From: a phage | Sequence record: EF517067.1 | DNA: 499 nucleotides | Reading direction: 5' to 3' (one strand) | In this document: one piece after another, positions 1 through 499 of the stretch | Layout: every line of letters starts with the position of its first letter | Position numbering within the stretch: the first letter of the stretch is position 1 | Position numbers and translations under genes: made by a program | Notes under the pieces: model-generated | Seen by the model: only the letters and a program-made list of their open reading frames with translations | What the model was told of the DNA's origin: nothing | The model's database searches: none

Positions 1-239
1 TTCAGGCAATCTTAGAGAAAGATATGCTGCATCTATGTAAGCAGGTCGACTCAGGTGCGATTGTCCCCAATGATAAACAGAAGGAAATGATTGTCCAGTT
101 CTTGACACACGGTATGGAAGGATTGATGACATTCGTAGTACGTACATCATTTCGTGAGGCCATTAAGGACATGCACGAAGAGTATGCAGATAAGAACTCT
201 TTCAAACAATCTCCTGCAACAGTACGGGAGGTGTTCTGA
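1..239 (+). CDS. 5.5: Gene 5.5 protein (H-NS-binding host-takeover protein), 5'-truncated by the window edge. Reading frame has codons starting at position 3; open from the window edge to TGA at 237-239. The true start codon lies upstream of the window; the ATG at 24 that begins the ORF-track entry is an internal Met.
   Basis: Frame +3 is open from position 3 to the stop at 237-239 (…QAILEKDMLHLCKQVDSGAIVPNDKQKEMIVQFLTHGMEGLMTFVVRTSFREAIKDMHEEYADKNSFKQSPATVREVF*). Its position immediately upstream of, and overlapping by 1 nt, a protein I recognise as T7 gp5.7 matches the T7 gene order 5.5-5.7-5.9. The identity of this C-terminal sequence as gp5.5 is from gene order and memory, not from a search. 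Confidence 0.8.
   Translation, partial: QAILEKDMLHLCKQVDSGAIVPNDKQKEMIVQFLTHGMEGLMTFVVRTSFREAIKDMHEEYADKNSFKQSPATVREVF
226..232 (+). promoter_or_regulatory. Shine-Dalgarno / ribosome-binding site for gene 5.7 (GGGAGGT), embedded in the 3' end of the gene 5.5 coding sequence.
   Basis: GGGAGGT at 226-232 is complementary to the 16S rRNA 3' end and sits 6 nt before ATG 239. Confidence 0.65.
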
Positions 240-448
240 TGTCTGACTATCTGAAAGTGCTGCAAGCAATTAAAAGTTGCCCTAAGACTTTCCAGTCCAA
301 CTATGTACGGAACAATGCGAGCCTCGTAACGGAGGCCGTTTCCCGTGGTCACATCTCGTGCCTGACTACTAGTGGACGTAACGGTGGCGCTTGGGAAATC
401 ACTGCTTCCGGTACTCGCTTTCTGAAACGAATGGGAGGATGTGTCTAA
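239..448 (+). CDS. 5.7: Gene 5.7 protein, 69 aa; small DNA-binding inhibitor of host RNA polymerase (sigma-S holoenzyme) in T7. Complete CDS, ATG 239-241 to TAA 446-448.
   Basis: Complete ORF MSDYLKVLQAIKSCPKTFQSNYVRNNASLVTEAVSRGHISCLTTSGRNGGAWEITASGTRFLKRMGGCV, which I recognise as T7 gp5.7 (69 aa, matching the known length). Strong SD GGGAGGT at 226-232, 6 nt upstream of the ATG. The start overlaps the upstream stop (TGATG) and the stop overlaps the downstream start (TAATG). Confidence 0.9.
   Translation: MSDYLKVLQAIKSCPKTFQSNYVRNNASLVTEAVSRGHISCLTTSGRNGGAWEITASGTRFLKRMGGCV
433..439 (+). promoter_or_regulatory. Shine-Dalgarno / ribosome-binding site for gene 5.9 (GGGAGGA), embedded in the 3' end of the gene 5.7 coding sequence.
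   Basis: GGGAGGA at 433-439 sits 8 nt before ATG 448. Confidence 0.65.
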
Positions 449-499
449 TGTCTCGTGACCTTGTGACTATTCCACGCGATGTGTGGAACGATATACAGG
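448..499 (+). CDS. 5.9: Gene 5.9 protein (RecBCD nuclease inhibitor, acidic DNA-mimic), N-terminal 17 codons only; 3'-truncated by the window edge.
   Basis: ATG at 448-450 followed by an open frame to the window end: MSRDLVTIPRDVWNDIQ…, matching the N-terminus of T7 gp5.9 as I recall it (MSRDLVTIPRDVWNDIQGY…). SD GGGAGGA at 433-439, 8 nt upstream. The start overlaps the gene 5.7 stop (TAATG). Confidence 0.85.
   Translation, partial: MSRDLVTIPRDVWNDIQ

What the first reader, a model, noticed from the sequence alone, without database searches (positions are those of the whole stretch)
194..241. Possible gene 5.5-5.7 fusion product would need a -1 (or +2) frameshift in a 45-nt overlap window; no canonical slippery heptamer seen
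I recall a 5.5-5.7 fusion protein being annotated for T7, though I am not certain of the proposed mechanism. In this sequence the gene 5.7 frame is open upstream of its ATG back to a TAA at 191-193. A ribosome shifting from the gene 5.5 frame into the gene 5.7 frame anywhere in 194-238 would therefore yield a fusion. I could not find an X XXY YYZ heptamer in the gene 5.5 phase in this interval, so any shift would be non-canonical, for example slippage at or near the TTC-TGA terminator.
Basis: partly seen in the sequence, partly recalled or inferred. Interest (0 to 1): 0.5.

Follow-up and report, generated by a model that had tools for sequence, protein, structure and literature searches.

The report
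T7 gene 5.5/5.7 stop-start overlap
The flagged stretch is the end of phage T7 gene 5.5, where its stop codon overlaps the start codon of gene 5.7 (TGATG); the "5.5-5.7 fusion" is an old, unverified database annotation, and the sequence evidence points to ordinary coupled translation of two separate proteins, not a programmed frameshift.

Summary
Gene 5.5 ends at TGA 237-239 and gene 5.7 starts at ATG 239-241. The 5.7 frame is open back to TAA 191-193, and no X_XXY_YYZ heptamer lies in phase. The window is 98.4% identical to T7.

The fusion is already annotated: V01146 "possible gene 5.5-5.7", which is UniProt P03787. An exact-sequence look-up places its -1 shift at the last sense codon TTC (...REVF-L-MSDYL...).

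Nothing supports a programmed shift:
- A 45-nt open -1 stretch occurs at about 20% of T7 gene ends.
- In 72 distinct relatives the open stretch ranges from 3 to 93 nt, and the terminal codon varies (G_AAG, C_AAG, G_CAA, A_CGA and others).
- The downstream hairpin is weak and shows no convincing covariation.
- T7 has six other 1-nt overlap junctions. One of them (1.6/1.7) carries the identical 15-mer GGAGGTGTTCTGATG.

What is conserved is the stop-start overlap (67 of 72) and a Shine-Dalgarno sequence 5-6 nt upstream of the ATG. This is the classic translational-coupling arrangement. One paper states that the fusion is not expressed, and the 69-aa Gp5.7 works on its own.

Verdict: already known, most likely ordinary, low interest.

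The parts
1..239 (+). 3' part of gene 5.5 (H-NS-binding protein), codons in phase with position 3, stop TGA 237-239
   Evidence: ORF list. Pfam PF11247 Phage_T7_55, E 2.8e-51, profile positions 22-99 of 99. T7 annotation.
191..193 (+). TAA in the gene 5.7 (-1) frame that closes the upstream extension. It arises from the 5.5 codons GAT AAG.
   Evidence: Sequence. Absent in relatives that use GAC AAA, e.g. L014, where the extension is 78 nt.
194..238 (+).
   Evidence: Expected by chance at about 20% of T7 gene ends. Ranges from 3 to 93 nt in relatives.
200..206 (+). T_TTC_AAA, the only in-phase site with any -1 re-pairing potential (P-site UUC to UUU; the A-site codon would become CAA, a mismatch)
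   Evidence: The leading T is C or G in the closest relatives.
210..231 (+). Predicted hairpin UCUCCUG/CGGGAGG that pairs the Shine-Dalgarno bases of gene 5.7
   Evidence: dG -11.4 kcal/mol, z -2.4, 3 of 200 shuffles fold as well. No covariation support in 22 distinct relatives.
226..233 (+). Shine-Dalgarno sequence GGGAGGTG for gene 5.7, 5-6 nt upstream of the ATG and inside gene 5.5
   Evidence: Anti-SD duplex energy has a median of -6.6 kcal/mol across 67 distinct relatives, against -2.3 in control windows; 96% are at or below -5.
234..241 (+). TTC TGA TG: last sense codon of 5.5, its stop codon, and the overlapping ATG of 5.7. The annotated fusion (P03787) shifts -1 here and re-reads C236 as CTG (Leu).
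   Evidence: Exact look-up of the candidate fusion ...REVF-L-MSDYL... hits CAA24415.1 / NP_041984.1 / P03787. The nine other shift positions looked up do not; four further intermediate positions (after 212-221) were not looked up.
239..448 (+). Gene 5.7 (69 aa, inhibitor of host RNA polymerase)
   Evidence: ORF. PDB 5LGM, a 69-residue chain, E 1.1e-41. Function from PMC5569994.
245..297 (+). Weak interrupted stem-loop downstream of the junction (candidate stimulator, not supported)
   Evidence: dG -12.7 kcal/mol, z -1.9, 7 of 200 shuffles fold as well. On 46 distinct relatives 77% of cells are paired, only 3 pairs change on both sides, and the inner helix is 65% paired.
435..450 (+). Second junction of the same design: SD GGAGGA, then TAATG (5.7 stop TAA 446-448, 5.9 ATG 448-450)
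   Evidence: The 5.9 frame is open for 66 nt upstream, and no fusion is annotated.
448..499 (+). 5' part of gene 5.9 (RecBCD inhibitor)
   Evidence: T7 annotation.

Best explanation
Positions 226-241 are a standard stop-start overlap junction (UGAUG) between two separately translated genes. A ribosome finishing gp5.5 terminates at UGA 237-239. The AUG of gene 5.7 shares the A of that stop codon, and a strong Shine-Dalgarno sequence (GGGAGGUG, 226-233) sits 5-6 nt upstream. Gp5.7 is therefore made either by re-initiation of the terminating ribosome or by fresh SD-directed initiation on mRNA that gene 5.5 translation keeps unfolded. This is translational coupling. The open -1 frame in 194-238 is a by-product: any 1-nt or 4-nt stop-start overlap puts the downstream gene in the -1 frame. 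The 169-aa '5.5-5.7 fusion protein' is a 1983 'possible' annotation that databases have carried forward. If it is made at all, it is made at the background error level. Shown here: the geometry, the conservation of the overlap and the SD, and the lack of any conserved frameshift signal. Inferred: that gp5.7 synthesis depends on gene 5.5 translation.
For: 1. The stop-start overlap is conserved in 67 of 72 distinct relatives (42 ATGA/GTGA, 25 TGATG/TAATG) even though the surrounding nucleotides differ.
2. An SD-like sequence precedes the 5.7 start in 96% of relatives, at or below -5 kcal/mol.
3. T7 has seven junctions with a 1-nt overlap. The 1.6/1.7 junction has the identical 15-mer GGAGGTGTTCTGATG with 63 nt open. 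The 5.7/5.9 junction in this window has 66 nt open. Neither is claimed to give a fusion.
4. There is no canonical slippery heptamer. The terminal codon contexts in relatives (G_AAG, G_TTC, C_AAG, G_CAA, A_CGA, G_CGC and others) are never of the X_XXY type.
5. The open -1 stretch ranges from 3 to 93 nt in relatives, and 16% have 9 nt or less.
6. The downstream stem-loop is weak and not supported by covariation. Rfam finds nothing.
7. [quoted passage not shown] The solved structure 5LGM is the 69-aa chain. Gp5.7 expressed alone in trans restores the phenotype in the Kiwa study.
8. The Atkins et al. 2016 recoding review cites only gene 10 for T7, in the first 300,000 characters held.
9. ATGA/TGATG overlaps give strictly coupled translation in 13 of 14 pairs tested (PMC6728339).
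10. Frameshift mutations in gene 5.5 phenocopy loss of gene 5.7 (bioRxiv 2021.04.26.441389). A polar effect through coupling would produce this.
Against: Dunn and Studier thought the fusion plausible enough to annotate, and I could not read their reasons. The 'not expressed' statement in PMC5569994 cites a reference whose title (helicase-polymerase interaction) does not fit, so its primary source is unverified. The gene 5.5 frameshift-mutant phenotype would also fit a functional fusion. Coupling itself was not tested here. In silico absence of signals cannot exclude a low-level non-canonical shift.
Confidence: 0.85

Rival explanations
1. The annotated fusion is real. A fraction of ribosomes with tRNA-Phe on UUC 234-236 and UGA in the A site slip back one base (or tandem-slip on G_GUG_UUC), read CUG (Leu), then AUG, and continue through gene 5.7. 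The product is a 169-aa gp5.5-Leu-gp5.7 protein that joins an H-NS/tRNA binder to an RNA polymerase inhibitor.
For: The database protein P03787/CAA24415.1 has exactly this junction. A slow-to-decode stop codon in the A site is a known context for P-site slippage (own knowledge). G_GUG_UUC has the same G_GU P-site start as the proven T7 gene 10 site G_GUU_UUC (for gene 10). A stem-loop begins 8 nt after the UUC codon. Two papers repeat the fusion as fact or as likely.
Against: After a -1 slip, tRNA-Phe would face GUU, a first-position mismatch, and there is no A-site tRNA to help. The terminal codon is not conserved in relatives. The SD ends only 2 nt before the UUC codon. From my own knowledge (Weiss 1988, Larsen 1994; not retrieved here), that is the prfB-like spacing that favours +1, whereas -1 stimulation needs about 10-14 nt. 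The identical 15-mer at the 1.6/1.7 junction has no reported fusion. The stem-loop is weak and lacks covariation. The fusion is reported as not expressed. Among 60 homologues, none spans both the 5.5 and 5.7 parts.
Confidence: 0.08
2. The shift occurs earlier, at T_TTC(_AAA) 200-206. tRNA-Phe slips from UUC to UUU, helped by the hairpin 210-231 three nucleotides downstream. The fusion would carry a 12-residue trans-frame linker (QTISCNSTGGVL) between the Phe encoded at 201-203 and the gene 5.7 Met.
For: It is the only in-phase Z_ZZN site in the window. A hairpin of -11.4 kcal/mol (z -2.4) follows it. The -1 frame is open from here to the ATG.
Against: The A-site Lys tRNA would face CAA. The leading T is C or G in the nearest relatives. 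Stops interrupt this -1 stretch in many relatives. The 3-nt spacer is shorter than the usual 5-9 nt (own knowledge). The hairpin has no covariation support. In-phase T_TTC occurs 32 times in T7 genes. The candidate protein with this junction is not in the collection.
Confidence: 0.03
3. RNA polymerase slippage adds or removes a base in some transcripts, so that standard translation yields a fusion.
For: None beyond the frame geometry.
Against: The longest homopolymer in 190-245 is 3 nt. Transcriptional slippage needs long A or T runs, about 9 in bacteria according to PMC5009743.
Confidence: 0.01

Closest known systems
Stop-start overlap gene pairs (ATGA / TGATG) translated by termination-reinitiation (Huber et al. 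2019, PMC6728339)
   Same: TGATG overlap, SD motif inside the upstream gene, and co-directional small genes in one transcript. The overlap is conserved in 67 of 72 relatives and switches between the two canonical forms, 1 nt and 4 nt.
   Different: Coupling has not been measured for this pair. The strong SD could also allow independent initiation.
T7 'possible gene 5.5-5.7' / UniProt P03787 'Fusion protein 5.5/5.7'
   Same: Same locus. Within 194-241 the window differs from T7 only at position 195, and it encodes the same junction, EVF-L-MSDYL.
   Different: That entry is a prediction. The window's hypothetical product would also carry G37D, G45D and D86N in the 5.5 part (numbered on the 99-aa T7 gp5.5) and A31T and A34V in the 5.7 part.
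T7 gene 10A/10B -1 frameshift (G_GUU_UUC; Condron et al. 1991)
   Same: Same phage, near the end of a gene. The heptamer here, G_GUG_UUC, shares the G_GU P-site start and the UUC A-site codon.
   Different: In gene 10 the A-site UUC slips onto UUU; here it would slip onto GUU. Gene 10 frameshifting is demonstrated experimentally and conserved in function; this one is not.
E. coli prfB +1 frameshift
   Same: An SD-like sequence a few nucleotides upstream of a codon that is followed by an in-frame UGA.
   Different: prfB shifts +1 on CUU_U. Here a +1 shift would end after two codons at TGA 244-246, and the 5.7 frame needs -1. UUC does not re-pair in +1 (UCU).
E. coli dnaX -1 frameshift
   Same: It would be a bacterial -1 shift with an SD and a stem-loop nearby.
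   Different: dnaX has A_AAA_AAG, an SD about 10 nt upstream and a strong stem about 6 nt downstream. None of the three is matched here.

Membership tests
Programmed -1 ribosomal frameshift site | In-phase slippery heptamer X_XXY_YYZ (or an accepted variant with good A-site re-pairing) | tested here: not met
   None of the 15 in-phase heptamers in 191-239 qualifies. The best are T_TTC_AAA (A site becomes CAA) and G_GTG_TTC (A site becomes GUU).
Programmed -1 ribosomal frameshift site | Stimulatory RNA structure 5-9 nt downstream of the shift site | tested here: inconclusive
   A stem-loop at 245-297 starts 8 nt after the TTC codon but is weak (-12.7 kcal/mol, z -1.9). On 46 relatives it shows 3 pairs with double changes, fewer than in shuffles, and the inner helix is 65% paired. 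No Rfam match.
Programmed -1 ribosomal frameshift site | Upstream SD-like stimulator at about 10-14 nt (bacterial -1 sites that use one) | tested here: not met
   The only SD (226-233) ends 0-2 nt before TTC 234-236, and none lies upstream of 200-206. The spacing rule is from my own knowledge (Larsen et al. 1994).
Programmed -1 ribosomal frameshift site | Conservation of the shift site and of the open trans-frame among relatives | tested here: not met
   Fifteen different terminal contexts, none of them X_XXY. The open stretch ranges from 3 to 93 nt. The leading T of T_TTC is not conserved.
Programmed -1 ribosomal frameshift site | Trans-frame protein product detected | not testable with these tools
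   PMC5569994 says the fusion is not expressed, but its citation looks misplaced. No proteomic evidence was found.
Translationally coupled stop-start overlap (termination-reinitiation type) | Stop codon of the upstream gene overlaps the start codon of the downstream gene by 1 or 4 nt on the same strand | tested here: met
   TGATG at 237-241. Found in 67 of 72 relatives as TGATG/TAATG or ATGA/GTGA.
Translationally coupled stop-start overlap (termination-reinitiation type) | Ribosome-binding motif for the downstream gene inside the upstream coding sequence | tested here: met
   GGGAGGTG lies 5-6 nt upstream of the ATG. Median anti-SD energy is -6.6 kcal/mol in relatives against -2.3 in controls.
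Translationally coupled stop-start overlap (termination-reinitiation type) | Translation of the downstream gene depends on translation of the upstream gene | not testable with these tools
   Indirect only: gene 5.5 frameshift mutants behave like gene 5.7 mutants. A hairpin predicted to mask the SD is not confirmed by covariation.
T7 genes 5.5 / 5.7 / 5.9 locus | Sequence identity and gene order | tested here: met
   98.4% identity to T7 16912-17410. PF11247 for gp5.5. PDB 5LGM for gp5.7.

The most novel reading that the evidence does not exclude
A small but selected fraction of ribosomes really does slip -1 at the non-canonical G_GUG_UUC_UGA terminus, an SD-adjacent, stop-codon-dependent P-site slip with a mismatched re-pairing. 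This would make a gp5.5-gp5.7 fusion that tethers the H-NS/tRNA-binding module to the RNA polymerase inhibitor. It would then be a new type of bacterial -1 site, and the same 15-mer at the 1.6/1.7 junction would be expected to behave likewise.
Probability: 0.06. Interest if true: 0.5.

Novelty: already known. Interest (0 to 1): 0.1.

Why it matters
Mainly as a clean-up. The label 'Fusion protein 5.5/5.7' is carried by UniProt P03787 and by PDB 5LGM, whose chain is only the 69-aa Gp5.7. It has also been copied into a few relatives' genome records, and recent papers repeat it as if established. The comparative evidence here says the junction is an ordinary coupling cassette. This matters for interpreting defence-escape mutants that map to gene 5.5: they are probably polar effects on gp5.7, not loss of a fusion. 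If the fusion were real it would be a modest addition to the list of non-canonical bacterial frameshift sites.

Tried and rejected
- Rfam scan of the window at E up to 1 gave no match.
- The promoter and terminator scan found nothing relevant on the + strand.
- The downstream stimulatory hairpin was folded and tested for covariation, and is not supported.
- The SD-masking hairpin is significant in this sequence but has no covariation support. I keep it only as a side note.
- I searched for natural in-frame 5.5-5.7 fusions among homologues. None turned up. The long hits are a tandem 5.7 duplicate entry and frameshifted variants.
- I looked up ten of the fourteen distinct candidate fusion sequences (each a different shift position). 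Only the terminal-codon version exists in databases. The four intermediate positions (shift after 212, 215, 218 or 221) were not looked up.
- Literature: the primary sources are not held (Dunn and Studier 1983; Zhu 2012, PMC3361414; Zhang 2011, PMC3111293; Liu and Richardson 1993, PMC45959).
- The supplements of the nucleotide-depletion preprint did not yield the positions of the gene 5.5 mutations.
- The T7 proteomics paper PMC5592923 does not mention 5.5 or 5.7.
- A +1 shift was rejected because it stops at TGA 244-246. Transcriptional slippage was rejected because there is no homopolymer longer than 3 nt.

Full report
**What the window is.** The 499 bases are 98.4% identical to phage T7 positions 16912-17410. 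They cover the last 78 codons of gene 5.5, all of gene 5.7 and the first 17 codons of gene 5.9. Gp5.5 matches Pfam PF11247 (E 2.8e-51). Gp5.7 matches the 69-residue chain of PDB 5LGM. Within 190-245 the window differs from T7 only at position 195 (A for G, Asp to Asn in gp5.5).

**Checking the observation.**
- Gene 5.5 ends ...GTG TTC TGA, with the stop at 237-239.
- Gene 5.7 begins at ATG 239-241, sharing one base with the stop (TGATG).
- The 5.7 frame is the -1 (= +2) frame of 5.5.
- That frame is open for 45 nt (194-238) behind a TAA at 191-193.

I listed all 15 in-phase heptamers between 191 and 239. None is X_XXY_YYZ. The only in-phase Z_ZZN tetramer is T_TTC at 200-203. No homopolymer exceeds 3 nt.

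The openness is not remarkable. Stops occur at 0.104 per codon in the -1 frame of T7 genes. That gives a probability of 0.19 for 15 open codons, and 22% of the 51 T7 gene ends have at least 45 nt open. One in-phase Z_ZZN per 15 codons is close to the expected 0.55, and T7 genes contain 32 in-phase T_TTC.

**The fusion is an existing annotation.** The original T7 record V01146 carries a two-piece CDS, 16851..17359, labelled 'possible gene 5.5-5.7'. Most later T7 records omit it. I built the hypothetical products for each possible -1 shift position and looked up ten of the fourteen distinct sequences by exact match. Only one of those ten exists: gp5.5 residues 1-99 (...REVF) + Leu + gp5.7 (MSDYL...). 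It corresponds to CAA24415.1, NP_041984.1 and UniProt P03787, 'Fusion protein 5.5/5.7'. The annotators therefore placed the shift at the last sense codon TTC (window 234-236), with C236 re-read as CTG.

The same annotation has been copied by analogy into phiSG-JL2, Vi06 (flagged as a pseudogene) and CR8. Their terminal contexts are C_AAA_TGA, G_CGC_TAA and G_AAG_TAA. The label also sits on PDB 5LGM, although that chain is only the 69-aa Gp5.7.

**Comparative test.** I fetched 80 related loci from IMG/VR using gp5.7 as the query. They give 72 distinct junctions.
- Stop-start overlap: in 67 of the 72, the gene 5.5 stop overlaps the 5.7 start. The overlap is 1 nt (TGATG/TAATG) in 25 and 4 nt (ATGA/GTGA) in 42. 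Both forms automatically place 5.7 in the -1 frame.
- Open -1 stretch: it ranges from 3 to 93 nt with a median of 42, and 16% have 9 nt or less.
- Terminal codon context: G_AAG, G_TTC, C_AAG, G_CAA, A_CGA, G_CGC, G_AGC and others. None has a repeated base that would allow -1 re-pairing.
- T_TTC at 200-203: the leading T is C or G in the nearest relatives.
- Shine-Dalgarno match: by contrast, one precedes the 5.7 start in 96% of distinct relatives. The median anti-SD duplex energy is -6.6 kcal/mol against -2.3 in control windows.
- Natural fusions: a homology search with the fusion protein found no protein that spans both parts.

**Internal controls in T7.** Seven T7 gene pairs share a 1-nt stop-start overlap: 0.3/0.4, 1.6/1.7, 3/3.5, 5.5/5.7, 5.7/5.9, 6.7/7 and 7.7/8. 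The 1.6/1.7 junction carries the identical 15-mer GGAGGTGTTCTGATG, with 63 nt of open downstream frame. The 5.7/5.9 junction inside this window (SD GGAGGA, TAATG at 446-450) has 66 nt open. Neither is annotated as a fusion. The junction is therefore a recurring expression cassette, not a special site.

**Possible stimulators.** Downstream of the junction, an interrupted stem-loop (245-297) is predicted at -12.7 kcal/mol, z -1.9. On 46 distinct relatives only 3 pairs change on both sides, fewer than in shuffles, and the inner helix is paired in 65% of cells.

Upstream, a hairpin pairs UCUCCUG (210-216) with CGGGAGG (225-231) at -11.4 kcal/mol, z -2.4. It would mask the 5.7 SD until a ribosome translating 5.5 melts it, which would fit coupling. 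However, it has no covariation support.

The SD ends about 2 nt before the TTC codon. From my own knowledge (Weiss et al. 1988; Larsen et al. 1994), such close spacing favours +1 movement, as in prfB, while -1 stimulation needs about 10-14 nt. A +1 shift here would terminate at TGA 244-246. Rfam gives no match.

**Literature.**
- PMC5569994 (Tabib-Salazar et al. 2017) notes the one-base overlap and the suggested fusion, then says the fusion 'is not expressed'. It goes on to characterise the 69-aa Gp5.7 functionally and structurally. The reference it cites has an unrelated title, so the primary source is uncertain.
- Gp5.7 expressed alone in trans restores the phenotype in the Kiwa study.
- The large recoding review PMC5009743 cites only gene 10 for T7.
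- A preprint on T7 attenuation states that the fusion results from a -1 frameshift, without giving data.
- The nucleotide-depletion preprint reports that frameshift mutations in gene 5.5 mimic loss of 5.7 and invokes the fusion. A polar effect through translational coupling explains that equally well.
- Overlaps of the ATGA/TGATG type gave strictly coupled translation in 13 of 14 tested pairs (PMC6728339).
- I could not read Dunn and Studier 1983 or the PNAS papers.

**Conclusion.** The most likely mechanism is separate synthesis of gp5.5 and gp5.7 through a conserved SD plus stop-start overlap; I put this at about 0.85. A genuine low-level shift at G_GUG_UUC_UGA cannot be excluded in silico. 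Its P-site start resembles the gene 10 site G_GUU_UUC, but the A-site re-pairing fails. I put that reading at about 0.06-0.08, and a shift at T_TTC_AAA at about 0.03. The decisive test is targeted mass spectrometry for the junction peptide EVFLMSDYLK. The feature is already known and of low interest.

Noticed in passing
window 49, 73, 102, 195, 250, 271, 329, 339: All 8 differences from T7 are one-directional transitions: window A for T7 G at four sites and window T for T7 C at four sites. Five change amino acids. Positions 329 and 339 (gp5.7 A31T, A34V) are invariant in 79 relatives. GenBank AY264775 ('T7 isolate K') shows the same one-directional pattern and shares 250T. The window probably comes from a chemically mutagenised or laboratory-evolved T7 line, not a natural relative.
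   Followed up: partly
window 227-241 and L083 (T7) 8154-8168: The 15-mer GGAGGTGTTCTGATG (SD, spacer, stop-start overlap) is identical at the T7 1.6/1.7 and 5.5/5.7 junctions. It looks like a reused expression cassette and is a natural internal control for any frameshift assay.
   Followed up: partly
window 205-235: A predicted hairpin pairs the gene 5.7 Shine-Dalgarno bases with the Ser-Pro codons UCUCCU of gene 5.5 (-11.4 kcal/mol, z -2.4). It could make 5.7 initiation depend on 5.5 translation, but relatives give no covariation support.
   Followed up: yes
L003, L005, L010-L012, L014 versus window 1-238: In several close relatives gene 5.7 and the last ~27 nt of gene 5.5 stay above 90% identical to the window, while the rest of gene 5.5 drops to about 50% ungapped identity. 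This suggests a recombination boundary just upstream of the junction.
   Followed up: no
PDB 5LGM; PMC5569994 reference 10: The 69-residue Gp5.7 structure is named 'Fusion protein 5.5/5.7' in the PDB sequence file. The paper's statement that the fusion is not expressed cites an article on helicase-polymerase interaction, probably a mis-citation.
   Followed up: partly
proteins P0016, P0072, P0040: Database oddities among homologues: a 140-aa UniRef entry that is a head-to-tail duplicate of gp5.7 (Kayfunavirus); a 128-aa gp5.7 N-terminus that leaves the 5.7 frame midway and ends in unrelated sequence (its C-terminal part was not identified); and a gp5.5 whose C-terminus is read in the +1 frame. 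These are probably sequencing or assembly errors or mutants.
   Followed up: no
window 2-352, minus strand: A 116-aa GTG-initiated antisense ORF spans the junction. I saw no evidence that it is a gene. A sigma-70-like match on the minus strand at 97-70 is within the chance expectation.
   Followed up: no
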